Shown here piece by piece: positions 1,605 to 40,630 of a DNA stretch of 64,000 bases; the stretch's first letter is position 1, and the number at the start of each line of letters is the position of its first letter. Both the position numbers and the translations under genes were made by a program. This DNA comes from Escherichia coli (GTDB lineage: Bacteria > Pseudomonadota > Gammaproteobacteria > Enterobacterales > Enterobacteriaceae). The notes below the pieces were generated by a model. That model made no database searches and was not told the origin of the DNA. It worked only from the letters and a program-made list of their open reading frames with translations. The stretch is from the NCBI RefSeq assembly GCF_036507355.1, contig NZ_AP027877.1; one strand, given 5' to 3'.

Positions 1605-4406
1605 TTATTCGACGTTCAGCGCGTCATTAACCAGATCTTGTTGCTGTTTCTGGTGAACGGACATATACCCTACCGCCGGAGAGGCGGAGGCCGGGCGGCC
1701 TGCATAACGCAGAGAAGCCCCAAACGGAATCACTTCACGGAAATGATGCTGGCTGCAGTACCATGCGCCCTGGTTGAGCGGCTCTTCCTGGCACCAGACA
1801 AAATCCTTGACGTGAGCAAACTGCTGCAACACTTCCTGCATCGCTTTATGCGGGAACGGGTAGAGTTGCTCGATACGCACAATGGCGACATCGTGTTGAT
1901 TGTTCTTACGACGCTGTTCCAGCAGGTCGTAATAAACCTTACCAGAACACATCACTACGCGCTTCACGCCCTTCGGATCAAGCTCGTCGATTTCACCGAT
2001 GGCTGGCAGGAAGGTGCCGTTCGCCAGTTCTTCGAGGCTGGAAACCGCCAGCGGATGACGCAGCAGGGATTTCGGCGACATCACGACCAGCGGACGACGC
2101 ATCCCGCGCAGCGCCTGACGACGCAGCATGTGGTAAACCTGTGCCGGGGTAGACGGTACGCAAACCTGCATGTTTTGCTCAGCACAAAGTTGCAGATAAC
2201 GTTCCAGACGCGCGGAGGAGTGCTCCGGCCCCTGCCCTTCGTAACCGTGCGGCAGCAACATCACCAGCCCACACATCCGGCCCCATTTCTGTTCGCCAGA
2301 GGAGATGAACTGGTCGATAACCACCTGCGCGCCGTTGGCGAAGTCACCGAACTGCGCTTCCCAGATAGTCAGAGTGCGTGGTTCTGCGGTGGCATAACCG
2401 TATTCAAACGCCAGCACTGCTTCTTCAGAAAGTACGGAGTCCCAGACACGGAACGCGCCCTGGCCGTTATGAATATGTTGCAGCGGCGTGTAAGTAGAAC
2501 CGTTAGACTGATTGTGGATCACCGCGTGGCGGTGGAAGAAGGTACCGCGACCGGAGTCTTCACCCGACAGGCGAACCGGAATGCCTTCATCAACCAGCGT
2601 GGCGTAAGCGAGGTTTTCCGCGCCGCCCCAGTCGAACAGTTTCTCACCGGCAGCCATCGCCTGGCGATCGCCATAAATCTTGGCAACGCGAGACTGCATT
2701 TCAACTGCTTCCGGCACCGTGCTGATGCGTTTCGCCAGCTCCTGCAGGCGCTTCATCTCAACTTTGTTCGGGTACTCTTCGTCCCATTCGTGGTTGAGGT
2801 ACGGCGACCAGGTGAAAGAGTGCATGTTCATCGGACGCCACTCTGCCACTACGCAATCGCCAGCATCCAGCGCATCGCGGTACAGGTTAACCATCTCGGT
2901 GGCATCTTCCAGCGTCGCCACTTTTTCCTGCTCCAGCTTGTCAGCGTAGATTTTGCGCGGTGTCGGATGTTTTTTGATTTTCTGATACATCAGCGGCTGG
3001 GTTGCGCTCGGCTCGTCGGCTTCGTTGTGGCCGTGACGGCGGTAGCACACCAGGTCGATGAAGACATCACGTTTAAAGGTGTTACGGAAATCGAGCGCCA
3101 GACGGGTCACAAAGGCAACGGCTTCCGGATCATCCGCGTTAACGTGGAAAATCGGTGCCTGAACCATCTTACCGATATCAGTACAGTACGGTGTAGAACG
3201 GGCATCCAGCGGGTTAGAGGTGGTGAAGCCAACTTGATTGTTGATAACGATACGTACCGTACCGCCAACTTCATAACCACGCGCTTTCGACATGTTCAGG
3301 GTTTCCTGAACCACGCCCTGCCCGGTCACTGCGGCGTCACCGTGGATGGTGATTGGCAGCACTTTGTTGCTGCTCGGCTCATCAAGTCTGTCCAGACGGG
3401 CACGAACAGAGCCGATAACAACCGGGCTTACAATCTCAAGGTGAGACGGGTTAAACGCCAGCGCCAGGTGTACCAGGCCGCCATCGGTCTGGAAGTCAGA
3501 CGAGAAGCCCATGTGGTATTTCACGTCACCCGTGCCGAGGTGTTCTTTATGTTTACCGGCGAACTCGTCGAACAAGTCTTGCGGTTTTTTACCCAGCACG
3601 TTCACCAGCACGTTCAGACGACCACGGTGCGCCATCCCGAGAACCACTTCCCGGGTGCCGCTGTTGCCAGCGTGGCGGATCATCTCTTTAAGCATCGGGA
3701 TTAACGCGTCACCGCCTTCCAGCGAGAAGCGTTTTGCACCAGGGAATTTTGCACCGAGGTAACGTTCAAGGCCTTCAGCGGCGGTCAGTTCGCTTAAGAA
3801 GCGTTTTTTCTCTTCGCTATTGAAAGTCGCGCGACCAGACTCGATACGCTGTTGGATCCAGCGTTTTTCTTCGGTGCTGGTGATGTGCATATACTCGGCA
3901 CCAATCGGGCCGCAGTAGGTTTGCTTGAGGGCTTCCAGCAGCTCGCCGAGTTTCATGGTTTCTTTGCCGCTGGCAAATGAACCGACGTTGAAGGTCTCCT
4001 GGAAGTCTGCTTCGGTCAGATCGTGGAAAGACGGATCCAGATCGGCCACTTTATCTTGCTGCCACAGTCCCAGCGGATCGAGATTCGCATGCTGGTGACC
4101 ACGGAAGCGGTATGCGTTAATGAGCTGCAGGACTTTAACCTGCTTCACATTGGTGTCAGGGTCGGAGATCGTTGAAGAGTAACGTGAAGCGTCTTTCGCC
4201 AGGCGGCGGAAATATTCACGAGTTTGAGAGTGGAATTGATCCGGTTTGACTCCCGTACCAGGTAACTGCTGGAACGTCGAACGCCAGTTAGCGTCAACCG
4301 AGTCAGGATCGGTTAAGAAGTCTTCATAGAGCTGTTCTATCCAGCTCTGGTTTGCGCCAGAGAGGTAAGAAGAGTCCAACCAGGCTTTCAAAGCGCTGTT
4401 CTGCAT
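1605..4406 (-). CDS. sucA: 2-oxoglutarate dehydrogenase E1 component
   Basis: 933-aa [33 protein letters not shown]...; full-length SucA. Confidence 0.97.
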
Positions 4407-4585
4407 CGTGATCCCTTAAGCATCTTTTTTATGCTTACTTCGCCGTGGATACTACCACGCACAGTGATGTGCGTGCCGGGGTTCACTTGCGAGCTCTTGT
4501 CTACGTAGTGGCTCGCGAAGGAACCTTTAAAAACTGTCTTAGTGTCAGGGGCAGTTTTTAAAGATTTCCTGCATTTCTTTGTTAC

Positions 4586-4704
4586 GCCTGATGCGCTGCG
4601 CTTATCAGGCCTACGGGTAATGACTTGTAGGCCGGATAAGACGTTCACGCCGCATCCGGCACTGGTTGCCTGATGCGACGCTTGCGCGTCTTATCAGGCC
4701 TACG
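4586..4704. repeat. REP/BIME cluster (three REP units) in the sdhB-sucA intergenic region
   Basis: Imperfect palindromic units of the type gcctgatgcg...cttatcaggcctac and gtaggccggataag...gccgcatccggca, repeated in alternating orientation. Confidence 0.6.
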
Positions 4705-4706
4705 GT

Positions 4707-5423
4707 TTACGCATTACGTTGCAACAACATCGACTTGATATGGCCAATGGCGCGCGTCGGGTTCAGCCCCTTCGGACATACACTGACGCAGTTCATGATG
4801 CTGTGACAGCGGAATACACTGAATGCATCGCTCAAACCGTCGAGGCGGCTGTCAGTCTCGGTATCACGGCTATCGATCAGGAAACGATATGCCGCTAACA
4901 AGCCTGCCGGGCCGATAAACTTATCGGGATTCCACCAGAAAGACGGACAAGAGGTTGAACAACATGCGCAGAGAATACATTCATACAGCCCGTCGAGTTT
5001 TTCGCGCTGCTCTGGCATCTGTAAATGCTCACGAGCTGGCGGATTTTGTCCATTATTCAACAGGTAAGGCTTAATTTTCTCATATTGCGCATAGAATTGT
5101 CCCATGTCTACCACCAAATCGCGGATCACCGGTAAACCTGGCAGCGGGCGAATCACAATCTTCTTGCCCGGCTGGTTGAGTGCCGAAATAGGGGTAATAC
5201 AGGCCAGACCATTCTTGCCGTTCATGTTCAGACCGTCGGAACCGCACACACCTTCACGGCAGGAGCGACGGAACGACAGGCTGGGATCTTTCTCTTTTAG
5301 CTGGATAAGCGCATCCAGCAGCATCATGTCGCGACCTTCTTCCGCTTCCAGGGTGTAATCCTGCATACGCGGAGCATCATCAACATCCGGGTTATAGCGA
5401 TAAATTGAAAACTCGAGTCTCAT
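4707..5423 (-). CDS. sdhB: Succinate dehydrogenase iron-sulfur subunit
   Basis: 238-aa ORF MRLEFSIYRYNPDVDDAPRMQDYTLEAEEGRDMMLLDALIQLKEKDPSLSFRRSCREGVCGSDG...; 2Fe-2S and 4Fe-4S cysteine motifs. Confidence 0.97.
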   Translation of the reverse strand: MRLEFSIYRYNPDVDDAPRMQDYTLEAEEGRDMMLLDALIQLKEKDPSLSFRRSCREGVCGSDGLNMNGKNGLACITPISALNQPGKKIVIRPLPGLPVIRDLVVDMGQFYAQYEKIKPYLLNNGQNPPAREHLQMPEQREKLDGLYECILCACCSTSCPSFWWNPDKFIGPAGLLAAYRFLIDSRDTETDSRLDGLSDAFSVFRCHSIMNCVSVCPKGLNPTRAIGHIKSMLLQRNA

Positions 5424-5438: not shown

Positions 5439-7205
5439 TTAGTAAGTACGAATCTTCGGCGGGAATGCCGGGCGCAGTTTCGGTTCCATGTTGACGCTTC
5501 GGCGCGTCATGGATTCCGACTCTGGCAGATACAGGGAGTGGCACAGCCAGTTTTCATCATCACGATCCGGGAAGTCGAAGCGGCTATGTGCGCCACGGCT
5601 TTCGGTACGGAAGTTGGCAGAAACAGCCGTTGCATACGCCGTTTCCATCAGGTTATCCAGTTCCAGGCACTCAACGCGCTGGGTGTTGAACTCGCTGGAA
5701 GTGTCATCCAGACGGGCATTTTTCAGACGCTCGCGGATAACTTTCAACTGCTCAAGCCCTTTCGCCATCGCATCACCTTCACGGAAGACCGAGAAGTTAT
5801 GCTGCATACATTCTTGCAGCGCTTTACGAATCGCCACCGGATCTTCACCGTTACGATTATTGTTCCAGCGGTTCAGACGATCCAGAGACGCTTCAACATC
5901 AGACTCGCTGGCATCGCGCAGTGCGCCCTGCTCGGCGATAGACTCTTGCAGATGCAGACCTGCCGCACGACCAAAGACCACCAGGTCCAGCAGCGAGTTG
6001 CCGCCCAGACGGTTAGCGCCGTGTACCGATACACAAGCGATTTCACCTACCGCGAACAGCCCCGGAACAACCACATCTTCGCCTTTCTCATTCACAGTCA
6101 GCGCCTGACCGGTAACTTTGGTCGGAATACCGCCCATCATGTAGTGACAGGTTGGGATAACCGGAATCGGCTCTTTCACCGGATCAACGTGAGCGAAGGT
6201 ACGGGAAAGCTCCAGGATACCCGGCAGACGGGATTCGAGAACTTCTTTACCCAGGTGATCGAGTTTCAGTTTCGCGTGTGGCCCCCACGGACCATCACAG
6301 CCGCGACCTTCACGGATTTCGATCATGATGGAACGCGCCACCACATCACGGCCCGCCAGGTCTTTGGCGTTCGGCGCATAACGCTCCATAAAGCGTTCGC
6401 CATGTTTGTTCAGCAGATAACCGCCTTCACCACGGCAACCTTCGGTGACCAGTACGCCCGCACCGGCAATGCCGGTCGGGTGGAATTGCCACATTTCCAT
6501 ATCCTGCACCGGTACACCTGCACGGATAGCCATGCCGACGCCGTCGCCAGTGTTAATGTGGGCGTTAGTGGTGGACTGATAAATACGCCCTGCTCCGCCA
6601 GTCGCCAGCACGGTAGCGCGGGCTTTGAAATAAACCACTTCACCGGTTTCGATGCACAGTGCGGTACAACCCACCACCGCGCCATCCTGGTTTTTCACCA
6701 GATCCAGCGCATACCACTCAGAGAAAATGGTGGTGTGGTTTTTCAGGTTCTGCTGATAAAGCGTGTGCAACAGTGCGTGACCGGTACGGTCAGCCGCTGC
6801 CGCAGTACGTGCCGCCTGCTCGCCGCCGAAGTTTTTCGACTGACCGCCAAACGGACGTTGATAGATACGACCATCATCAAGACGCGAGAACGGCAGGCCC
6901 ATGTGTTCGAGTTCCAGAATCGCTTCCGGCCCGGTTTTACACATATATTCAATCGCGTCCTGGTCACCGATATAGTCCGACCCTTTCACGGTGTCGTACA
7001 TATGCCATTCCCAGTTATCTTCATGGGTATTACCCAGCGCAACGGTAATGCCGCCTTGCGCAGAAACGGTATGGGAACGGGTCGGGAAGACTTTAGAGAG
7101 CAGCGCACAGGTCTGGCCGCTCTGGGAAATTTGCAGCGCCGCGCGCATACCTGCGCCGCCGGCACCAATCACAACTGCATCAAATTCTCTGACTGGCAAT
7201 TTCAT
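5439..7205 (-). CDS. sdhA: Succinate dehydrogenase flavoprotein subunit
   Basis: Track ORF 5439..7217 begins [26 protein letters not shown]...; start placed at MKLPVREF, giving 588 aa; FAD-binding GAGGAG motif. Confidence 0.96.
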
Positions 7206-7935: not shown

Positions 7936-8643
7936 GAATAACGCCCACATGCTGTTCTTATTATTCCCTGGGGACTACGGGCACAGAGGTTAACTTTCTG
8001 TTACCTGGAGACGTCGGGATTTCCTTCCTCCGGTCTGCTTGCGGGTCAGACAGCGTCCTTTCTATAACTGCGCGTCATGCAAAACACTGCTTCCAGATGC
8101 GAAAACGACACGTTACAACGCTGGGTGGCTCGGGATTGCAGGGTGTTCCGGAGACCTGGCGGCAGTATAGGCTGTTCACAAAATCATTACAATTAACCTA
8201 CATATAGTTTGTCGGGTTTTATCCTGAACAGTGATCCAGGTCACGATAACAACATTTATTTAATTTTTAATCATCTAATTTGACAATCATTCAACAAAGT
8301 TGTTACAAACATTACCAGGAAAAGCATATAATGCGTAAAAGTTATGAAGTCGGTATTTCACCTAAGATTAACTTATGTAACAGTGTGGAAGTATTGACCA
8401 ATTCATTCGGGACAGTTATTAGTGGTAGACAAGTTTAATAATTCGGATTGCTAAGTACTTGATTCGCCATTTATTCGTCATCAATGGATCCTTTACCTGC
8501 AAGCGCCCAGAGCTCTGTACCCAGGTTTTCCCCTCTTTCACAGAGTGGCGAGCCAAATAACAAACGGGTAAAGCCAGGTTGATGTGCGAAGGCAAATTTA
8601 AGTTCCGGCAGTCTTACGCAATAAGGCGCTAAGGAGACCTTAA
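7936..8643. promoter_or_regulatory. Divergent gltA / sdhCDAB promoter-regulatory region (about 700 bp, AT-rich)
   Basis: Long non-coding, AT-rich spacer between divergently oriented gltA (+) and sdhC (-). Established knowledge places multiple promoters and global-regulator sites here; individual sites were not mapped. Confidence 0.6.
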
Positions 8644-9927
8644 ATGGCTGATACAAAAGCAAAACTCACCCTCAACGGGGACACAGCTGTTGAACTGGAT
8701 GTGCTGAAAGGCACGCTGGGTCAAGATGTTATTGATATCCGTACTCTCGGTTCAAAAGGTGTGTTCACCTTTGACCCAGGCTTCACTTCAACCGCATCCT
8801 GCGAATCTAAAATTACTTTTATTGATGGTGATGAAGGTATTTTGCTGCACCGCGGTTTCCCGATCGATCAGCTGGCGACCGATTCTAACTACCTGGAAGT
8901 TTGTTACATCCTGCTGAATGGTGAAAAACCGACTCAGGAACAGTATGACGAATTTAAAACTACGGTGACCCGTCATACCATGATCCACGAGCAGATTACC
9001 CGTCTGTTCCACGCTTTCCGTCGCGACTCACATCCAATGGCAGTCATGTGTGGTATTACCGGCGCGCTGGCGGCGTTCTATCACGACTCGCTGGATGTTA
9101 ACAATCCTCGTCACCGTGAAATTGCCGCGTTCCGCCTGCTGTCGAAAATGCCGACCATGGCAGCGATGTGTTACAAGTATTCCATTGGTCAGCCATTTGT
9201 TTATCCGCGCAACGATCTCTCCTATGCCGGTAACTTCCTGAATATGATGTTCTCCACGCCGTGCGAACCGTATGAAGTTAATCCGATTCTGGAACGTGCT
9301 ATGGACCGTATTCTGATCCTGCACGCTGACCATGAACAGAACGCCTCTACCTCCACCGTGCGTACCGCTGGCTCTTCGGGTGCGAACCCGTTTGCCTGTA
9401 TCGCAGCAGGTATTGCTTCACTGTGGGGACCTGCGCACGGTGGTGCTAACGAAGCGGCGCTGAAAATGCTGGAAGAAATCAGCTCCGTTAAACACATTCC
9501 GGAATTTGTTCGTCGTGCGAAAGATAAAAATGATTCTTTCCGCCTGATGGGCTTCGGTCACCGCGTGTACAAAAATTACGACCCGCGCGCCACCGTAATG
9601 CGTGAAACCTGCCATGAAGTTCTGAAAGAGCTGGGCACCAAAGATGACCTGCTGGAAGTGGCTATGGAGCTGGAAAACATCGCGCTGAACGACCCGTACT
9701 TTATCGAGAAGAAACTGTACCCGAACGTCGATTTCTACTCTGGTATCATCCTGAAAGCGATGGGTATTCCGTCTTCCATGTTCACCGTCATTTTCGCAAT
9801 GGCACGTACCGTTGGCTGGATCGCCCACTGGAGCGAAATGCACAGTGACGGCATGAAGATCGCCCGTCCGCGCCAGTTGTACACCGGCTATGAAAAACGA
9901 GACTTTAAATCAGATGTTAAACATTAA
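8644..9927 (+). CDS. gltA: Citrate synthase
   Basis: 427-aa [50 protein letters not shown]...; full-length type II citrate synthase. Confidence 0.97.
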
Positions 9928-31467: not shown

Positions 31468-33516
31468 ATGAGTCGTAAACAACTGGCGCTATTCGAACCA
31501 ACACTTGTCGTTCAGGCGCTGAAAGAAGCGGTGAAAAAATTAAACCCGCAGGCGCAATGGCGCAATCCGGTGATGTTTATCGTCTGGATCGGCAGTCTGC
31601 TGACCACCTGTATTAGCATCGCGATGGCAAGCGGTACGATGCCTGGCAATGCGCTGTTTAGTGCGGCAATTAGCGGTTGGCTGTGGATCACCGTACTGTT
31701 CGCTAATTTCGCCGAGGCGCTGGCAGAAGGCCGCAGTAAAGCGCAGGCCAACAGTCTGAAAGGGGTGAAAAAAACTGCCTTTGCCCGCAAGCTGCGTGAG
31801 CCGAAATATGGCGCTGTGGCAGACAAAGTTCCTGCCGATCAACTGCGTAAAGGCGATATCGTACTGGTAGAAGCTGGCGATATTATCCCCTGCGATGGTG
31901 AAGTTATTGAAGGGGGTGCATCGGTGGATGAAAGCGCCATCACCGGGGAATCGGCACCGGTGATCCGTGAATCCGGCGGCGATTTTGCCTCCGTCACTGG
32001 CGGCACGCGTATTCTTTCTGACTGGCTGGTGATTGAGTGTAGCGTTAACCCCGGCGAGACATTTCTGGATCGGATGATCGCGATGGTGGAAGGCGCACAG
32101 CGACGTAAAACGCCGAACGAGATTGCCCTGACTATTCTGCTGATTGCCCTGACTATCGTCTTTTTACTGGCAACCGCCACGCTGTGGCCGTTTTCCGCGT
32201 GGGGCGGTAATGCAGTCAGTGTAACGGTACTGGTGGCGCTGCTGGTCTGTCTGATCCCAACCACTATTGGCGGCCTGTTGTCAGCGATCGGCGTCGCCGG
32301 GATGAGTCGGATGCTGGGCGCGAATGTGATTGCCACCAGCGGACGTGCAGTTGAAGCGGCAGGTGACGTTGACGTTCTGCTACTGGATAAAACCGGCACC
32401 ATCACACTCGGTAACCGTCAGGCATCGGAGTTTATCCCCGCGCAGGGCGTGGATGAAAAAACGCTGGCTGACGCCGCACAACTGGCTTCGCTGGCTGATG
32501 AAACGCCGGAAGGCCGCAGTATTGTGATCCTCGCCAAGCAACGTTTTAACCTGCGCGAGCGCGATGTGCAGTCGCTCCATGCCACCTTTGTACCGTTTAC
32601 TGCGCAAAGCCGGATGAGCGGGATAAACATCGACAACCGCTTGATCCGTAAAGGTTCTGTCGATGCCATTCGCCGCCATGTTGAGGCTAACGGTGGTCAC
32701 TTCCCTGCCGATGTTGATCAAAAAGTCGATCAGGTTGCGCGTCAGGGAGCCACGCCGCTGGTGGTGGTGGAAGGTTCTCGTGTGCTGGGCGTTATTGCGC
32801 TGAAAGATATCGTCAAAGGCGGTATTAAAGAGCGCTTCGCCCAGCTGCGTAAAATGGGCATTAAAACGGTGATGATTACCGGCGATAACCGTCTGACTGC
32901 CGCCGCGATTGCTGCGGAAGCGGGTGTCGATGATTTTCTCGCCGAAGCGACACCGGAGGCCAAGCTGGCATTGATCCGTCAGTATCAGGCGGAAGGCCGT
33001 TTGGTGGCGATGACCGGCGACGGCACCAACGATGCTCCGGCGCTGGCGCAGGCAGATGTCGCGGTGGCGATGAACTCCGGTACTCAGGCGGCGAAAGAAG
33101 CGGGCAATATGGTGGATCTCGACTCTAACCCGACCAAGTTGATCGAGGTGGTGCACATTGGCAAACAGATGCTGATGACCCGTGGCTCGCTAACCACCTT
33201 CAGCATTGCCAACGATGTGGCGAAATACTTCGCCATTATTCCGGCGGCATTCGCGGCAACGTATCCACAGTTAAATGCGCTGAACATCATGCGCCTGCAT
33301 TCGCCCGACTCAGCCATTCTCAGTGCGGTCATTTTCAACGCCTTGATTATCGTCTTTTTGATTCCCCTGGCGTTAAAAGGCGTGAGTTATAAACCGCTTA
33401 CCGCTTCTGCCATGTTGCGCCGTAACTTATGGATTTACGGTCTGGGTGGGCTGCTGGTGCCGTTTATTGGTATCAAAGTCATTGATTTACTGCTGACCGT
33501 TTGCGGTCTGGTGTGA
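31468..33516 (+). CDS. kdpB: K+-transporting P-type ATPase subunit B
   Basis: 682-aa ORF with P-type ATPase motifs ([23 protein letters not shown]). Confidence 0.97.
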
Positions 33517-33524
33517 GGTTTACC

Positions 33525-34097
33525 ATGAGTGGATTACGTCCGGCATTATCGACATTTATCTTTCTGTTATTGATTACTGGCGGCGTTTACCCGCTGCTGA
33601 CCACTGTGCTGGGGCAATGGTGGTTTCCCTGGCAGGCCAATGGTTCGTTGATTCGTGAAGGTGATACGGTGCGCGGTTCGGCATTAATCGGGCAGAATTT
33701 TACCGGCAACGGCTATTTTCAGGGTCGCCCGTCGGCAACGGCAGAAATGCCCTATAATCCACAGGCTTCTGGCGGGAGCAATCTGGCAGTCAGTAACCCT
33801 GAGCTGAATAAACTAATAGCCGCACGCGTTGCTGCATTACGGGCCACTAACCCGGATGCCAGCGCGAACGTTCCGGTTGAACTGGTGACGGCGTCGGCAA
33901 GCGGGCTGGACAATAACATCACCCCGCAAGCGGCGGCCTGGCAGATCCCACGCGTAGCGAAAGCGCGTAATCTCAGCGTTGAACAGCTCACGCAACTGAT
34001 CGCAAAATACAGCCAACAACCGCTGGTGAAATATATCGGCCAGCCGGTCGTCAACATTGTCGAACTCAATCTGGCGCTGGATAAACTTGATGAATAA
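33525..34097 (+). CDS. kdpC: K+-transporting ATPase subunit C
   Basis: Start placed at [41 protein letters not shown] (190 aa) inside track ORF 33501..34097. Confidence 0.93.
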
Positions 34098-36774
34098 CGA
34101 ACCCTTACGTCCCGACCCCGATCGTCTGCTGGAACAAACTGCCGCGCCGCATCGGGGGAAGCTGAAAGTTTTCTTCGGTGCCTGCGCAGGCGTCGGGAAG
34201 ACCTGGGCGATGCTGGCAGAAGCCCAGCGACTGCGGGCGCAAGGGCTGGATATTGTGGTTGGCGTGGTAGAAACCCACGGGCGGAAAGATACCGCCGCCA
34301 TGCTGGAAGGGCTGGCTGTTCTGCCGCCAAAACGCCTGGCGTACCGTGGGCGGCACATCAGCGAGTTTGATCTCGATGCCGCCCTCGCCCGCCGTCCGGC
34401 GCTGATCTTAATGGACGAACTGGCGCACAGTAATGCGCCAGGTTCTCGTCATCCTAAACGCTGGCAGGATATCGAAGAACTGCTGGAAGCTGGCATTGAT
34501 GTTTTCACAACCGTCAACGTTCAGCATCTGGAAAGTCTGAATGATGTGGTCAGCGGCGTCACCGGAATTCAGGTACGGGAAACCGTGCCCGATCCTTTTT
34601 TCGATGCCGCCGACGACGTGGTGCTGGTGGACTTGCCCCCGGACGATCTGCGCCAGCGGCTGAAAGAAGGCAAAGTCTATATTGCCGGGCAGGCGGAGCG
34701 CGCCATTGAACATTTTTTCCGCAAAGGCAATCTGATCGCCCTGCGCGAACTGGCACTGCGCCGTACTGCCGATCGCGTTGATGAGCAAATGCGCGCCTGG
34801 CGGGGGCATCCTGGCGAAGAGAAAGTGTGGCACACGCGCGACGCGATCCTTTTATGCATCGGGCATAACACCGGCAGTGAGAAACTGGTCCGCGCGGCGG
34901 CGCGGCTGGCGTCGCGGCTGGGTAGCGTCTGGCACGCGGTGTATGTTGAAACCCCTGCCCTGCATCGCTTACCGGAGAAAAAACGTCGGGCAATTCTCAG
35001 CGCCTTACGTCTGGCGCAGGAGCTGGGCGCGGAGACGGCAACACTTTCTGATCCAGCGGAAGAGAAAGCGGTAGTGCGTTATGCCCGTGAACATAATCTC
35101 GGCAAGATTATTCTCGGTCGCCCAGCCTCGCGCCGCTGGTGGCGTCGGGAAACGTTTGCTGACCGACTGGCGCGCATCGCCCCCGATCTCGATCAGGTGC
35201 TGGTCGCGCTTGATGAACCACCCGCCCGCACGATTAACAACGCGCCGGATAGCCGCTCTTTTAAAGACAAGTGGCGGGTACAGATTCAGGGATGCGTGGT
35301 TGCCGCCGCGTTATGCGCCGTTATCACCTTAATTGCCATGCAGTGGCTGATGGCGTTTGATGCCGCCAATCTGGTGATGCTGTATCTGCTTGGCGTGGTG
35401 GTGGTGGCGCTATTTTATGGACGCTGGCCTTCGGTGGTTGCCACCGTCATTAATGTGGTGAGTTTCGATCTCTTTTTTATCGCCCCACGCGGCACGCTCG
35501 CCGTCTCTGATGTGCAATATCTGCTGACCTTCGCGGTGATGTTAACCGTCGGGCTGGTGATCGGGAACCTTACTGCTGGCGTGCGTTATCAGGCGCGGGT
35601 AGCCCGTTACCGCGAACAACGCACACGGCACTTATATGAAATGTCGAAAGCTCTGGCGGTGGGCCGCAGTCCGCAGGACATCGCCGCCACCAGCGAACAA
35701 TTTATTGCCTCCACGTTTCATGCCCGCAGCCAGGTATTGTTACCCGATGACAACGGTAAATTGCAGCCGTTAACGCATCCGCAAGGAATGACGCCGTGGG
35801 ACGATGCCATCGCGCAGTGGAGTTTTGATAAAGGCCTGCCTGCGGGTGCGGGCACCGACACGTTACCCGGCGTGCCATACCAGATTTTGCCGTTAAAAAG
35901 CGGTGAGAAAACTTACGGGCTGGTGGTGGTGGAACCGGGGAATCTGCGCCAGTTGATGATCCCGGAACAGCAGCGCCTGCTGGAGACGTTTACGCTGTTA
36001 GTCGCCAATGCCCTTGAGCGGCTGACGCTGACCGCCAGCGAAGAACAGGCGCGGATGGCAAGTGAACGTGAACAGATCCGCAACGCTCTGCTGGCGGCGC
36101 TTTCGCACGATTTACGCACTCCGCTCACGGTGTTGTTCGGTCAGGCAGAAATCTTAACGCTCGATCTGGCAAGCGAAGGATCGCCCCACGCCCGCCAGGC
36201 CAGCGAGATTCGTCAGCATGTGCTGAACACTACCCGACTGGTGAATAATCTACTGGATATGGCGCGAATTCAGTCCGGCGGCTTTAATTTGAAGAAAGAG
36301 TGGTTAACGCTGGAAGAAGTAGTCGGCAGCGCGCTGCAAATGCTGGAACCGGGTTTATCGTCGCCCATCAATCTTTCTCTGCCAGAACCGCTGACCTTAA
36401 TCCACGTTGACGGGCCACTCTTTGAACGGGTGCTGATTAATCTGCTGGAGAACGCGGTGAAATATGCGGGTGCGCAGGCCGAAATTGGTATCGATGCCCA
36501 CGTTGAGGGCGAAAATCTACAACTGGATGTCTGGGATAACGGCCCCGGCCTTCCGCCAGGCCAGGAGCAGACGATATTTGATAAGTTTGCTCGCGGGAAT
36601 AAAGAGTCGGCAGTACCGGGGGTAGGGCTTGGACTGGCAATTTGTCGGGCGATAGTGGATGTACACGGGGGCACTATTACCGCGTTCAACCGACCGGAAG
36701 GTGGTGCCTGTTTTCGTGTTACACTTCCCCAGCAAACTGCCCCTGAACTTGAAGAATTTCATGAGGATATGTGA
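34090..36774 (+). CDS. kdpD: Sensor histidine kinase KdpD
   Basis: Start placed at [42 protein letters not shown] (894 aa); overlaps kdpC by 8 nt; histidine kinase HDLRTPL motif present. Confidence 0.95.
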
Positions 36775-37448
36775 CAAACGTTCTGATTGTTGAAGATGAA
36801 CAAGCTATTCGTCGCTTTCTGCGCACGGCGCTGGAGGGCGACGGTATGCGCGTCTTTGAGGCCGAAACGCTGCAACGCGGCTTGCTGGAAGCGGCAACCC
36901 GTAAGCCAGATTTGATTATTCTCGATCTCGGCCTGCCCGATGGTGATGGGATTGAGTTTATCCGCGACCTGCGCCAGTGGAGCGCGGTGCCGGTGATAGT
37001 GCTTTCCGCACGCAGCGAAGAGAGCGACAAAATCGCCGCGCTGGATGCCGGAGCGGATGATTATCTGAGTAAGCCGTTTGGCATTGGCGAATTGCAGGCC
37101 CGTCTGCGCGTCGCATTACGCCGCCATTCAGCCACTGCCGCGCCCGATCCGCTGGTGAAATTTTCCGATGTGACCGTCGATTTAGCCGCCCGCGTGATCC
37201 ATCGGGGCGAGGAAGAGGTGCATCTCACGCCGATTGAGTTCCGCCTGCTGGCGGTGCTGCTCAACAATACCGGAAAAGTGCTCACCCAGCGCCAGCTCCT
37301 TAACCAGGTGTGGGGGCCAAACGCGGTCGAACACAGTCATTATTTGCGTATTTATATGGGGCATCTGCGACAAAAACTGGAGCAGGATCCCGCCCGCCCC
37401 CGCCATTTCATTACCGAAACCGGTATTGGGTATCGGTTTATGCTTTAG
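36771..37448 (+). CDS. kdpE: Response regulator KdpE (OmpR family)
   Basis: 225-aa ORF (GTG start overlapping the kdpD stop) [39 protein letters not shown]...ITETGIGYRFML. Confidence 0.95.
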   Translation: MTNVLIVEDEQAIRRFLRTALEGDGMRVFEAETLQRGLLEAATRKPDLIILDLGLPDGDGIEFIRDLRQWSAVPVIVLSARSEESDKIAALDAGADDYLSKPFGIGELQARLRVALRRHSATAAPDPLVKFSDVTVDLAARVIHRGEEEVHLTPIEFRLLAVLLNNTGKVLTQRQLLNQVWGPNAVEHSHYLRIYMGHLRQKLEQDPARPRHFITETGIGYRFML

Positions 37449-37740
37449 GGGTTGAAATGCCGGATGCGGCGTAAACGCCTTATCCAGCCTACTCATCGTC
37501 CCGTAGGCATGATAAGACGCGTCAGCGTCGCATCAGGCATGGCTCTGTGAATAACGTCGGCAAAAACTGGAAAAAGACCCCGCCCTCGCCATTTTATTAC
37601 CGAAACCGGTATTGGGTATCGGTTTATGCTTTAGGGGCTGACTTGCCGGATGCGGCGTGAACGCCTTATCCAGCCTACTCATCGTCCCGTAGGCATGATA
37701 AGACGCGTCAGCGTCGCATCAGGCATTGGCACTCATGGCT
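37449..37740. repeat. REP/BIME cluster containing an imperfect tandem duplication of the kdpE 3' end
   Basis: Segment 37371-37542 recurs at 37561-37728 at roughly 90% identity, including REP units gccggatgcggcgtaaacgccttatccagcctac and gtaggcatgataagacgcgtcagcgtcgcatcaggca. Confidence 0.7.
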
Positions 37741-37747
37741 AAATATT

Positions 37748-38242
37748 TTAATGTGTATTTATCGCTTTCAACTCTTGCTGGCATTTTTCTGACTGGCAGC
37801 GTCGCAACTCAATAATCCCGACATGCATCATCGAGCCAATAAAGCCGCTTTCGCTGACATAATCCTCATTAACTATCGGTCGAGTGCCGGGCTTGCCCTG
37901 GCAAACCAGCATAAAAAATGAGGTGTAGCACTGCCAGCCGGGATTTAAACCGGCTTTTTCTTGTGCTGACATATCGTGAAGATAAATAAGTTCTTTTTCG
38001 TTCCCGCCTGACAACTGCCAGCGGCGGGTATTATCAGGTAAGTTATCGCTACAACAATTTGTCTTACACCGGGAAGGCGCAATATTTACCGCAATGCTAC
38101 CCTTTAACCCTCTGGTTTTATCTTTAGGGGTCAGTAACCAGTCGCCAGCTAATGATGATTGTTCAGGTTGGGCACATGCAGTCAGCAGTAGTGTGGCGGC
38201 AATGAATGTTACTCTTACGACCAGACTCCTTTTGGTCTTCAT
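37748..38242 (-). CDS. ybfP: Putative lipoprotein
   Basis: 164-aa ORF MKTKRSLVVRVTFIAATLLLTACAQPEQSS... with lipobox LLTAC; position next to pgm as in K-12. Confidence 0.75.
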   Translation of the reverse strand: MKTKRSLVVRVTFIAATLLLTACAQPEQSSLAGDWLLTPKDKTRGLKGSIAVNIAPSRCKTNCCSDNLPDNTRRWQLSGGNEKELIYLHDMSAQEKAGLNPGWQCYTSFFMLVCQGKPGTRPIVNEDYVSESGFIGSMMHVGIIELRRCQSEKCQQELKAINTH

Positions 38243-38292
38243 TTTGAATTCCCTTGAGCTATTCAGTTTGTTGGCAAAGTGCGCGTTGTTTT

Positions 38293-38333
<41 letters not shown>

Positions 38334-38418: not shown

Positions 38419-40059
38419 TTACGCGTTTTTCAGAACTTCGCTAACAATCTCAACCGCTTCTTTCTCAATCTGCTTGCGATGTTCTTCACCGAGGAAGCTT
38501 TCGCAGTAGATCTTATATGCGTCTTCCGTGCCTGACGGACGCGCGGCGAACCAGCCGTTGTCAGTCATCACTTTCAGACCGCCAATAGAAGCACCGTTGC
38601 CCGGAGCAGCAGTCAGGCGCGCGGTGATCGGGTCACCTGCCAGGGTGCTGGCGCTCACCATTTCCGGAGACAGCTTAGACAGCGCCGCTTTTTGTGCGGA
38701 AGTCGCAGCTGCCTGCAAACGGTTGTAGCTCGGCGCACCAAAGCGTTTTGCCAGTTCGTTGTAGTGTTCCTGCGGGTTCTTACCGGTGACAGCGGTGATT
38801 TCCGCCGCCAGCAGACACATGATGATGCCGTCTTTGTCGGTGGACCACGGCGTGCCGTCGAAACGCAGGAAGGAAGCCCCTGCGCTCTCTTCGCCGCCAA
38901 AGCCGAAGCTGCCGTCGAACAGACCATCAACAAACCATTTGAAACCTACCGGGACTTCTACCAGCTTACGACCCAAGTCATTGACCACACGGTCGATCAT
39001 CGCAGAAGAAACCAGCGTTTTACCAACGGCAACATCTTTGCCCCACTGCGGACGATGCTGGAACAGGTAATTGATCGCCACCGCCAGGTAGTGGTTCGGA
39101 TTCATCAAACCTGCCGGAGTGACGATACCGTGACGGTCATAATCCGGGTCGTTAGCAAAAGCCAGATCGAACTTATCACGCAGTGCCAGCAGGCCCGCCA
39201 TCGCACACTCGGAGGAGCAGTCCATACGGATCGCGCCGTCTTTATCAAGGTGCATAAAGCGGAAGGTTTGATCGACCTGATTGTTAACGATGGTCAGGTT
39301 GAGGTTGTAATACTCGCCAATACGCTTCCAGTATTCGATACCGGAACCGCCCAGCGGATCAACGCCAAGCGTCAGGCCCGCTTTCTGAATCGCCGCCATA
39401 TCAACGATATCGGCCAGCCCTTCCACGAACGGCTGCACCAGATCCTGCTCTTTCACATGACCGGATGCCATCGCTTCGTCGAGGGAGATACGCTTCACGC
39501 CTTTCAGGCCATCGGCCAGCAGTGCGTTGGCTCTGTCTTCCACCACTTTAGTGACGTTGGTATCTGCCGGGCCACCATTTGGCGGATTGTATTTGATTCC
39601 ACCATCTTCCGGCGGGTTATGGGACGGTGTAATCACGATACCGTCTGCCAGCGGGCCACCTTTTTTATTGTGAACCAGGATGGCATTGGAAACGGCAGGC
39701 GTCGGGGTGAAGCCATTGTTTTCCTGCACAATAACATCTACGCCGTTCGCTGCCAGCACTTCCAGAACGGAAATAAATGCAGGTTCGGACAGGGCGTGAG
39801 TATCTTTACCCACATAGCAAGGGCCAGTGATGCCGTTTTTCGCACGTTCTTCAGCAATTGCCTGAGCGATCGCCAGAATGTGCGGCTCGTTAAAGCTGTG
39901 GCGCGCTGCACTGCCACGGTGACCGGAAGTACCGAATTTCACCGCGTGCTCCGCATTCCCTGCTTCTGGTTTCAGTACATAATATTGCGCCGTCAGTTGG
40001 GCGACGTTAATCAAATCACTCTGTTGTGCAGGTTGGCCTGCACGATTGTGGATTGCCAT
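38419..40059 (-). CDS. pgm: Phosphoglucomutase
   Basis: Start placed at [49 protein letters not shown] (546 aa) inside track ORF 38419..40110; phosphoserine loop TPSHNP present. Confidence 0.96.
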
Positions 40060-40084
40060 TGCTTTGTCCTTTGTCTGCAACGTT

Positions 40085-40630
40085 TTAGATAGTTCCGCAA
40101 ACCTTCTCAATCAATTCCGCCGGGAATTGCATCGACTGCATGATGTGTTCGATCATGCTGCATTTACGGCCGGTGTTGGTGTTGGTGATCACCCAATACG
40201 GCGTGCCTGGCACATGTTTCGGCTTGGTCTGATTACCATTTTTCAGCAGCGTTTGTTCATCTGCCGCAAAGTAAACGCGTGTACGACCGTGCAACGATTC
40301 CGTTGCTTCGGCAAACGCCTGGGCGTCAAGAGAATATAGTGTAGACAACAGCAGCATAAAGCGATTGACCGCTCGCTTTTGCTCTGCGTATTCATCCGAA
40401 AGCAGAAGTTCACGCATTGCGCGAACCTTGTCTTTAATCGTTTTGACCGGCTTCGCTTCGACGATAGCAGGTGACGCAACGCGAACCTCTTTCGTCACCG
40501 GAGCAGCAGGCTGTGATGCGGCGGAAAATTTCAACATACGCCGTAAAATGTCGGATGCGCTCTCGCCGATATGCTTAGTGTGGCTGGCAATATAGCTGTA
40601 GAGTTCATCATCAACTTCAATCGTTTTCAT
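40085..40630 (-). CDS. seqA: Negative modulator of replication initiation, binds hemimethylated GATC
   Basis: Start placed at [35 protein letters not shown] (181 aa) inside track ORF 40085..40765. Confidence 0.95.

What the first reader, a model, noticed from the sequence alone, without database searches (positions are those of the whole stretch)
37371..37740. Imperfect tandem duplication of the kdpE 3' end plus REP units downstream of kdpE
A roughly 170-bp segment covering the last ~75 bp of kdpE and two REP units (37371-37542) recurs 190 bp downstream (37561-37728) at about 90% identity with a small indel. The second copy retains a frameshifted kdpE tail (QKLEKDPALAILLPKPVLGIGLCFRG). This is a footprint of REP-associated rearrangement at the junction.
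Basis: seen in the sequence. Interest (0 to 1): 0.45.

Follow-up and report, generated by a model that had tools for sequence, protein, structure and literature searches.

The report
Duplicated kdpE tail with REP pair
In a rare E. coli lineage, the last 80 bases of the regulator gene kdpE plus a pair of REP palindromes are repeated head to tail; this is a real but ordinary, probably neutral rearrangement scar, at a chromosomal junction that exists in at least six structural versions across E. coli.

Summary
Window 37368-37543 (the last 78 nt of kdpE, its stop codon and a REP pair) recurs at 37558-37730. Identity is 160 of 176 aligned columns (90.9%), with a 4-nt deletion that frameshifts the second kdpE tail. 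The kdpE-derived part alone matches at E = 4e-23, so the similarity is not just REP consensus.

The two copies are separated by a 14-nt spacer of unknown origin.

The structure is identical in seven independent assemblies but occurs in only 2 of 5,426 complete E. coli genomes. Sister strains with the same ybfP allele carry a single copy.

The junction is a structural hot spot:
- About 95% of E. coli carry speFL-speF-potE here; the window lacks it.
- About a third also carry ybfI, K-12's annotated kdpE-tail pseudogene.

Copy 2 shares neither join nor derived substitutions with ybfI, so it is an independent event.

The best reading is an in-situ tandem duplication whose join lies at the outer edge of a BIME. 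It has been kept in one lineage and sometimes collapses by recombination. It is non-coding and probably neutral. The REP role is plausible but unproven. Interest is low to moderate.

The parts
36771..37448 (+). kdpE, intact (225 aa, response regulator); its last 78 nt plus the stop codon form the left part of repeat copy 1
   Evidence: ORF. Annotated as kdpE in near-identical records. The tail translates to QKLEQDPARPRHFITETGIGYRFML*.
37368..37543 (+). Repeat copy 1: kdpE tail (37368-37448), 6-nt linker and a REP pair
   Evidence: 160 of 176 columns identical to copy 2.
37459..37538 (.). BIME 1: REP 37459-37492 (GCCGGATGCGGCG... type) and inverted REP 37503-37538 (GCCTGATGCGACG... type on the minus strand), with a 10-nt linker
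   Evidence: The REP core recurs 6 times in the window against 0 expected. naRNA4 (REP-derived) Rfam hits. About 29 megablast places per E. coli genome. The typing as Z2 + Y (BIME-2-like) is from my own knowledge of Bachellier/Gilson nomenclature.
37544..37557 (+). 14-nt spacer TCTGTGAATAACGT at the join between the copies; origin unknown
   Evidence: No match with up to 4 errors in the window or in seven fetched loci representing states A, B and C. blastn of the spacer plus its flanks hits only the two genomes that carry the duplication, out of 5,426.
37558..37634 (+). Repeat copy 2, kdpE-derived fragment (77 nt): a 5'-truncated kdpE tail, frameshifted by loss of one CCCG unit (about 37578-37585), ending at the stop-equivalent TAG 37632-37634
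   Evidence: (E = 4e-23). The allele table shows that the 3' 52 nt equal the EC1515/L016 kdpE allele and that K-12 ybfI-specific changes are absent.
37645..37724 (.). BIME 2: REP 37645-37678 and inverted REP 37689-37724. These differ from BIME 1 at one base (A/G, 37474 vs 37660) and share the lineage-specific CCAGCCTACTC
37748..38242 (-). ybfP-type lipoprotein gene (164 aa), convergent with kdpE; a hypervariable accessory gene that bounds the repeat on the right
   Evidence: ORF. 91% aa identity to K-12 YbfP. Alleles are 86-96% identical in DNA, against 97-99% for pgm.
38293..38327 (+). Third REP locus, between ybfP and the pgm terminator; it is the partner of the kdpE-proximal REP in the ybfP deletion seen in ETEC6335

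Best explanation
This is a lineage-specific tandem duplication that arose once, in situ, in an E. coli chromosome of the minority 'kdpE-BIME-ybfP-pgm' type, which lacks speFL-speF-potE. The duplicated unit of 186-190 bp runs from codon 199 of kdpE to the outer edge of the REP pair (BIME) downstream of kdpE. The new join (BIME edge | 14-nt filler | kdpE position -81) was made by illegitimate recombination, meaning without homology or with microhomology only. This was probably at a break or stalled fork at the BIME, a known gyrase, Pol I and recombination site. Copy 1 remains the working end of kdpE. Copy 2 is a dead fragment: it has no 5' part and has since lost one CCCG unit by slippage. The functional copy 1 was later overwritten in part by allelic recombination, which accounts for most differences between the copies. 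The two copies are themselves substrates for homologous recombination, which collapses the duplication back to a single copy in some strains. The element most likely has no function beyond adding a second BIME between two convergent genes. Shown: the anatomy, the single origin, the rarity, the independence from ybfI, and the existence of collapsed relatives. Inferred: the direction (duplication first, collapse later), the illegitimate-join mechanism, the role of the BIME, and neutrality.
For: The copies are head to tail, in the same orientation, and adjacent with one join. The join, spacer and copy 2 are identical in 7 assemblies whose kdp operons differ by 1.3-2.2%, so the structure has a single origin and is not an artefact. 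Only 2 of 5,426 complete genomes carry the join. Both BIMEs share the lineage-specific CCAGCCTACTC, which the other single-copy haplotypes (L003, L014) lack; this points to an origin within this haplotype rather than import. Copy 1 varies among carriers while copy 2 does not, and the flanking kdp genes are highly mosaic, so allelic replacement of copy 1 is plausible. Strains L007 and L009 have a ybfP gene 100% identical in DNA but a single unit made of the copy-1 left part plus the copy-2 right flank. L007 is closest to duplication carriers on both flanks, while L009 is not close to any one carrier. This is compatible with collapse by crossover in the 66-nt identical REP stretch, but the flanks are too mosaic to give a direction. 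Copy 2 shares neither join, nor downstream sequence, nor the ybfI-specific substitutions (CCGGCCCGGCC) with K-12 ybfI. The 4-nt indel sits in a CCCG CCCG repeat, and independent frameshifted KdpE proteins in the database break in the same tract. A REP x REP deletion in ETEC6335 and a review stating that BIMEs bind and are cleaved by gyrase and are associated with recombination (PMC3184786) support a BIME role.
Against: A plain tandem duplication does not predict a 14-nt filler of unknown source. The first 33 nt of copy 2 carry 5 substitutions plus the indel. Four of the 5 substitutions in the first nine codons are at third positions (p = 0.045), which looks like divergence of a working gene rather than decay; the crowding itself is only marginal (p = 0.055). 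The left end of the unit is not at a REP. The direction of change (duplication then collapse, or the reverse order of alleles) cannot be proven, because the flanks are scrambled by recombination. No experiment bears on function.
Confidence: 0.6

Rival explanations
1. Import scar (homology-facilitated illegitimate recombination). A DNA fragment from another strain, beginning 81 nt before the end of its kdpE and continuing through its BIME, ybfP and pgm, was integrated. Integration used a homologous crossover on the pgm side and an illegitimate join just after the recipient's own BIME. Copy 2 would then be a passenger piece of the donor's kdpE.
For: Copy 2's 3' part is identical to a kdpE allele found in other strains (EC1515/L016), not to copy 1. 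The first nine codons of copy 2 differ from kdpE mostly at third positions, as between orthologues. ybfP is a deeply diverged, horizontally shuffled allele (86-96% identity against 97-99% for pgm). The kdp side is highly mosaic. The architecture of K-12's ybfI (a kdpE tail joined to a REP, far from kdpE) shows that such passenger fragments exist at this locus.
Against: Both BIMEs carry the same lineage-specific variant, which the EC1515-type haplotype lacks. No donor kdpE with the zone-1 sequence was found in 5,426 E. coli genomes or in JGI metagenomes; the only hits were unrelated OmpR-family genes. The filler is not explained by this model either.
Confidence: 0.22
2. Relic of the loss of speFL-speF-potE. 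Copy 2 would be the orthologue of K-12's ybfI pseudogene, and the window would be what remains after the operon and ybfG were deleted from a K-12-like arrangement.
For: In K-12-type strains the operon is flanked by kdpE-tail direct repeats (kdpE and ybfI). Recombination between them does delete the operon in 3 genomes. Salmonella and C. koseri show that the operon is ancestral at this position.
Against: Real kdpE x ybfI deletions leave kdpE-ybfG-ybfP with one tail, not two. Copy 2 starts 63 nt further into kdpE than ybfI, has a different left join and a different downstream sequence (BIME, not ybfG), and lacks ybfI's diagnostic substitutions. No 'potE-ybfI-BIME-ybfP' intermediate exists in 5,426 genomes.
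Confidence: 0.07
3. A selected functional element: the extra BIME and fragment act as a transcription terminator or mRNA stabiliser between the convergent genes kdpE and ybfP, or encode a small RNA or peptide.
For: The region folds strongly (z = -5.8), as any REP pair does. REPs are known to stabilise upstream mRNA (PMC3184786). The structure is conserved without change across carriers.
Against: The conservation reflects recent common descent: ybfP is also 100% identical in these strains. Sister strains do without the second copy. There is no Rfam family above threshold and no promoter or terminator excess. The only ORFs are short and out of frame.
Confidence: 0.05
4. REPIN/RAYT-mediated transposition of the REP pair that carried flanking DNA along with it.
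For: The REP pair has the inverted-doublet (REPIN-like) form.
Against: The copy includes 77 nt of non-REP coding sequence, lies immediately adjacent to its source, and has no second flank. This is the signature of duplication, not transposition.
Confidence: 0.02

Closest known systems
ybfI (b4636), the annotated kdpE-tail pseudogene of E. coli K-12
   Same: It is a 5'-truncated copy of the 3' end of kdpE, in the same orientation as kdpE and lying between kdpE and ybfP. Its 5' end is joined to a REP, and it acts as a direct repeat that can recombine with kdpE.
   Different: ybfI is 142-150 nt rather than 77 nt. It lies 4 kb away, beyond speFL-speF-potE, and is followed by ybfG (DUF2625) rather than a BIME. 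It has its own diagnostic substitutions and is present in about 1,850 of 5,426 genomes rather than 2. The window's copy 2 is an independent event, not an orthologue.
BIME clusters and REP-associated tandem duplication join points (Shyamala, Schneider & Ames 1990, cited from memory; gyrase cleavage of BIME-2, Espeli & Boccard 1997, via PMC3184786)
   Same: A Z2/Y REP pair between convergent genes. The copy number of the REP unit varies among strains. A duplication endpoint lies at the edge of a REP. A REP x REP deletion occurs at the same locus in another strain.
   Different: In classical cases both endpoints lie in REPs and the unit is either kilobases long or just the REP motifs. Here one endpoint is inside a coding sequence, the unit is 186-190 bp, and the join carries a 14-nt filler.
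Gene-3'-end direct repeats flanking integrated islands (attL/attR of integrase-borne islands in tRNA, tmRNA or protein genes)
   Same: A gene keeps an intact 3' end while a displaced copy of that end lies downstream. In K-12-type strains the two kdpE tails bracket a 4-kb operon that can be lost by recombination between them.
   Different: There is no integrase and no mobile element. The bracketed operon is ancestral at this position in Salmonella and Citrobacter. In the window nothing but a BIME lies between the copies.

Membership tests
REP / BIME (repetitive extragenic palindromes) | An imperfect palindrome of about 35 nt with the GCCGGATGCGGCG...CGCCTTATCCGGCCTAC consensus, present in many copies per genome | tested here: met
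   The 28-nt core occurs 6 times in the window with at most 1 mismatch, against 0 expected. There are about 29 megablast places per E. coli genome for a query containing the REPs. REP-derived naRNA4 gives hits on all four units.
REP / BIME (repetitive extragenic palindromes) | Extragenic location, typically between convergent genes, as inverted pairs of two REP types | tested here: met
   Both pairs lie between the kdpE stop (37448) and the ybfP stop (37748), each with two REPs in opposite orientation. The Y/Z2 typing is from memory, not tested against a curated set.
Tandem duplication | Two adjacent copies in the same orientation with a single novel join, and a single-copy allele in relatives | tested here: met
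   for the copies. Single-copy alleles occur in L003, L014 and L016, and in L007 and L009, which share the same ybfP haplotype.
Tandem duplication | A join explained by the ends of the unit alone (no foreign sequence) | tested here: not met
   A 14-nt spacer at 37544-37557 has no counterpart at the right end of copy 2 or anywhere else searched.
ybfI pseudogene (orthology with K-12 b4636) | The same 5' join and the same flanking sequence | tested here: not met
   ybfI begins 63 nt further upstream in kdpE coordinates, is preceded by a truncated REP plus the X1 segment, and is followed by ybfG. Copy 2 is preceded by BIME 1 plus the spacer and followed by BIME 2.
ybfI pseudogene (orthology with K-12 b4636) | Shared derived substitutions relative to kdpE | tested here: not met
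   ybfI-specific G92 and G98 (CCGGCCCGGCC): G98 is absent from copy 2, and position 92 falls within copy 2's 4-nt deletion and cannot be scored. The sites that copy 2 does share with ybfI (CTCGCC, ATTTTATT, GGGTATCGG) are ordinary kdpE polymorphisms, also seen in the kdpE of EC1515 or ST131.
Transposon or IS target-site duplication | Short direct repeats (2-14 bp) flanking a mobile element that has a transposase or terminal inverted repeats | tested here: not met
   The repeat is 172-176 nt, and only a BIME and a 14-nt spacer lie between the kdpE-derived parts. There is no transposase ORF in 37000-38300.
Integrase-type island att repeats | An integrase gene and an island between the repeats | tested here: not met
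   There is no such ORF between the copies. In K-12-type strains the bracketed genes are speFL-speF-potE, which are ancestral at this position.

The most novel reading that the evidence does not exclude
The 3' end of kdpE and the neighbouring BIMEs may form a recurrent, mechanistically specific illegitimate-recombination pair. Two independent 'REP | 5'-truncated kdpE tail' joins exist: the window's copy 2 and K-12's ybfI. In K-12 the ybfI-ybfG-ybfP module is bracketed by diverged copies of the same 43-nt segment plus a REP, as if it were one unit of an older and larger tandem duplication. The window's allele would then be a living small-scale example of the intermediate that built the K-12 arrangement. 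The resulting kdpE-tail repeats would be what makes the acid-inducible ornithine decarboxylase operon speFL-speF-potE deletable in a third of E. coli.
Probability: 0.15. Interest if true: 0.45.

Novelty: new member of a known kind. Interest (0 to 1): 0.25.

Why it matters
On its own the duplication matters little. It is a non-coding scar with no sign of function, in about 0.04% of complete E. coli genomes. Its value is as a marker and an example. It tags one ybfP haplotype. It shows that gene-end fragments next to REP pairs, like K-12's unexplained pseudogene ybfI, can arise repeatedly at the same junction. It also draws attention to a compact hot spot (kdpE to pgm) with at least six structural alleles. 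In that hot spot, short kdpE-tail repeats and REPs demonstrably mediate loss of the speFL-speF-potE operon and of ybfP. For annotation, copy 2 should be labelled a kdpE pseudogene fragment, not a gene.

Tried and rejected
1. The genome-contig scan with YbfP peptide patterns returned only a 1.9-kb 'Collinsella' MAG contig that is really E. coli DNA. Outgroups were obtained instead through KdpE homologues.

2. I first thought that the shared sites CTCGCCATTTTATTAC and GGGTATCGG proved that copy 2 and ybfI derive from the same 'operon-less' haplotype. The wider allele table shows these are ordinary kdpE polymorphisms (ST131 kdpE has two of them), so I withdrew the argument.

3. I searched for a 'potE-ybfI-BIME-ybfP' intermediate with a synthetic query. 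None exists in 5,426 genomes.

4. I searched for the source of the spacer and of copy 2's diverged first 33 nt in four places: the window and seven representative fetched loci, megablast, blastn with word size 11 in E. coli genomes, and an exact 24-mer scan of JGI metagenomes. The metagenome scan hit only two unrelated OmpR-family regulators that encode the same LRQKLEKDPA motif. No source was found.

5. The two-zone divergence pattern looked striking by eye but is only marginal statistically (p = 0.055), so I do not build on it.

6. The literature search for E. coli ybfI found only the unrelated B. subtilis gene of that name. Searches for loss of speF/potE by phylogroup gave nothing relevant.

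7. YbfP homologue look-ups gave only more E. coli alleles, so ybfP appears restricted to Escherichia.

Full report
**What is in the sequence**

The window carries kdpD (to 36774) and kdpE (36771-37448, 225 aa) on the plus strand. A ybfP-type lipoprotein gene (37748-38242) and pgm (38419-40110) lie on the minus strand.

Between the convergent kdpE and ybfP lie 299 nt. A unit made of the last 78 nt of kdpE, its stop codon, a 6-nt linker and an inverted pair of REP palindromes occurs twice, head to tail. The first copy begins inside kdpE; the second lies wholly in this interval.

- The repeat finder reports 37393-37540 vs 37579-37726 (148 nt, 96%, spacing 186) and 37368-37400 vs 37558-37590 (33 nt, 79%, spacing 190).
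- A global alignment of 37368-37543 with 37558-37729 has 160 of 176 columns identical (90.9%), with four gap columns.
- The kdpE-derived part alone (71 of 81 columns) is the only significant match of the kdpE tail elsewhere in the window (E = 4e-23). The similarity is therefore not merely REP consensus.
- The four REP units are typical. Their 28-nt core occurs six times in the window against none expected. Rfam's REP-derived naRNA4 model touches all of them below threshold.
- The frameshift is the loss of one CCCG unit of CCCGCCCG.
- A 14-nt spacer, TCTGTGAATAACGT (37544-37557), separates the copies and has no counterpart at the right end of copy 2.

**It is real, has a single origin, and is rare**

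The exact YbfP protein of the window is encoded in many public assemblies. Of the eight loci fetched, six have the 300-nt kdpE-ybfP spacing (duplication) and two have the 114-nt spacing (single copy).

Across the window and six other assemblies that carry the duplication, everything from 37455 to 37800 is identical apart from one SNP in one of them. This covers BIME 1, the spacer, copy 2, BIME 2 and the ybfP end. The kdpE part of copy 1 varies.

Among 5,426 complete E. coli genomes, only strain A30 (baboon, 100%) and isolate GPT24-02 carry the join.

The carriers' kdp operons differ from each other by 1.3-2.2%, their right flanks by 0.1-0.7%, and their ybfP genes not at all. The allele is thus one haplotype block that has been moved among backgrounds by recombination.

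The two single-copy strains of the same haplotype (L007, L009) have the left part of copy 1 fused to the right flank of copy 2. L007 is closest to duplication carriers on both flanks; L009 is not close to any one carrier. This is compatible with collapse by a crossover inside the 66 nt of identical REP sequence, but the direction cannot be proven because the flanks are mosaic.

**The junction is a structural hot spot**

Comparison with annotated genomes shows at least six states of the kdpE-pgm interval.

| State | Gene order | Where seen |
|---|---|---|
| A0 | kdpE-speFL-speF-potE-pgm | ST131, O157:H7; also Citrobacter koseri (Salmonella has the same order with one extra gene before pgm), so the operon is ancestral here |
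| A | kdpE-speFL-speF-potE-[truncated REP]-ybfI-ybfG-ybfP-pgm | K-12, where ybfI (b4636) is an annotated pseudogene made of the last ~142 nt of kdpE |
| C | kdpE-BIME-ybfP-pgm | Several strains |
| B | State C plus the tandem copy | The window |
| D | kdpE-REP-pgm, with ybfP removed by fusion of the kdpE-proximal REP with the REP next to the pgm terminator | ETEC6335 |
| E | kdpE-ybfG-ybfP-pgm, with the operon removed by recombination between the kdpE tail and ybfI | CUWW10, GF4-3, KL53 |

Approximate frequencies among complete genomes:

- B plus C: 246.
- E: 3.
- A: about 1,850. This is inferred from 1,854-1,859 extra kdpE-tail places.
- A0: most of the rest, about 3,300.

The window contains no speF, potE, speFL or ybfG anywhere in its 64 kb.

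**Copy 2 is not ybfI**

I first suspected that copy 2 is the orthologue of ybfI, left behind when the operon was lost. The evidence is against this.

- ybfI starts 63 nt further upstream in kdpE coordinates.
- ybfI is preceded by a truncated REP and a different flank, and is followed by ybfG rather than a BIME.
- Of ybfI's two diagnostic substitutions (CCGGCCCGGCC), one is absent from copy 2 and the other falls in copy 2's 4-nt deletion. The sites that copy 2 shares with ybfI are ordinary kdpE polymorphisms.
- Genuine kdpE x ybfI deletions leave one tail and keep ybfG.
- No 'potE-ybfI-BIME-ybfP' intermediate exists.

The window therefore shows a second, independent duplication of the kdpE tail at the same junction.

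**How it most likely arose**

The 3' 52 nt of copy 2's kdpE part equal a kdpE allele seen in other strains (EC1515, L016). Both BIMEs carry a variant (CCAGCCTACTC) that is specific to this haplotype and absent from the EC1515-type haplotype.

The simplest reading has four steps:

1. An in-situ tandem duplication of a 186-190-bp unit took place in an ancestor whose kdpE had that tail.
2. The new join lay at the outer edge of the BIME.
3. The working copy was later partly overwritten by allelic recombination. The kdp region is visibly mosaic.
4. One CCCG unit in the dead copy was lost by slippage. Independent frameshifted KdpE proteins in the database break in the same tract.

BIMEs bind and are cut by DNA gyrase and have been linked to recombination (review PMC3184786). 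REP-located join points of tandem duplications were described in Salmonella (Shyamala et al. 1990, cited from memory). A REP role is therefore plausible, and the REP x REP deletion in ETEC6335 supports activity at this very site. It is not demonstrated for this event, because the other endpoint lies inside kdpE.

**What remains unexplained**

- **The spacer.** The 14-nt spacer has no source in the window or in seven representative fetched loci, in 5,426 E. coli genomes or, together with the next 24 nt, in JGI metagenomes. In the metagenomes the only hits were unrelated OmpR-family genes encoding the same motif.
- **The first 33 nt of copy 2.** This stretch holds 5 substitutions and the indel, against 7 differences in the next 139 nt (p = 0.055). 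Four of the five substitutions in the first nine codons are at third positions (p = 0.045). This hints that the stretch diverged as part of a working gene. That would favour the rival model in which copy 2 is a passenger piece of a donor's kdpE, brought in by homology-facilitated illegitimate recombination. I give that model about 0.2.

**Function**

Nothing suggests a function.

- Copy 2 lacks a 5' part and is frameshifted.
- No RNA family reaches threshold.
- Promoter and terminator scans are at background.
- The strong predicted fold (z = -5.8) is what REP pairs always give.
- Sister strains lack the second copy.

The only demonstrable activity of such repeats at this locus is as recombination substrates: collapse of B to C, and loss of speFL-speF-potE in state E.

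**Verdict**

The element is a new, independent member of a known kind: a REP/BIME-adjacent tandem duplication that leaves a gene-end pseudogene fragment, like K-12's ybfI. It is of low to moderate interest in itself and somewhat more as part of a compact, well-resolved structural hot spot.

Noticed in passing
window 37449-37747 (compare L013 = K-12 712000-722500, L021, L022): The window lacks the acid-inducible ornithine decarboxylase/antiporter operon speFL-speF-potE and ybfG, which about 95% of complete E. coli genomes carry between kdpE and pgm. tblastn finds none of them anywhere in the 64 kb.
   Followed up: yes
L027 (CUWW10) 2223-3674; L028 (GF4-3); hit H99 (KL53): Three complete genomes have kdpE fused directly to the sequence downstream of ybfI (kdpE-ybfG-ybfP-pgm). 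The 4-kb operon was excised by recombination between the 142-nt kdpE-tail repeats. In CUWW10 the crossover lies in the last ~16 nt.
   Followed up: yes
L018 (ETEC6335) 6294-6470: ybfP is missing. The REP just after kdpE is fused to the REP that normally lies between ybfP and the pgm terminator, which is a clean REP x REP deletion at the same junction.
   Followed up: yes
L001 6931-7001 vs 8473-8654 (same in K-12, L013): In K-12-type strains, ybfI is preceded by a truncated REP and a 43-nt, 81%-identical copy (E = 7e-8) of the segment upstream of ybfP. The potE terminator also resembles the pgm terminator. The ybfI-ybfG-ybfP module therefore looks like one unit of an older, larger duplication whose join was likewise REP | kdpE tail.
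   Followed up: partly
window 37748-38242 and ybfP in L001, L003, L014, L016, L023: ybfP alleles are only 86-96% identical in DNA, while the adjacent pgm is 97-99% identical. ybfP is a hypervariable accessory lipoprotein gene, apparently restricted to Escherichia, with at least five deep allele classes.
   Followed up: partly
window 31800-37360 vs L005-L012: Strains sharing a 100% identical ybfP and join differ by 27-123 substitutions (median about 95, or 1.7%) over 5.5 kb of kdpB-kdpE, in mosaic blocks. The kdp operon is a strong recombination mosaic.
   Followed up: partly
proteins P0106, P0115, P0123; window 37388-37404: Several database KdpE proteins are frameshifted in or near the CCCGCCCGCCCCCGCC tract near the 3' end of kdpE. 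They read on into ...LLKPVLGIGLC..., the same alternative frame as copy 2. The tract seems to be a slippage hot spot, or a sequencing-error hot spot.
   Followed up: no
L004 (JAIJJM010000630.1, 1,899 nt): A contig of a MAG labelled Collinsella sp. carries ybfP and the end of pgm, with ybfP 100% identical to E. coli K-12. This is almost certainly binning contamination.
   Followed up: partly
L024 9002-9025, L025 185-208: Two unrelated environmental OmpR-family regulator genes contain the exact 24-mer CAAAAACTGGAAAAAGACCCCGCC, encoding LRQKLEKDPA. This is convergent coding of a conserved winged-helix motif, not homology to the window's fragment.
   Followed up: yes
L023 (FDAARGOS_1287) 3214-5124; hits H68, H101-H108: Further variants of the same interval carry IS200C between ybfP and pgm, IS200/IS605 or IS1 insertions beside ybfI/ybfG, and differently decayed ybfI and ybfG pseudogenes.
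   Followed up: no
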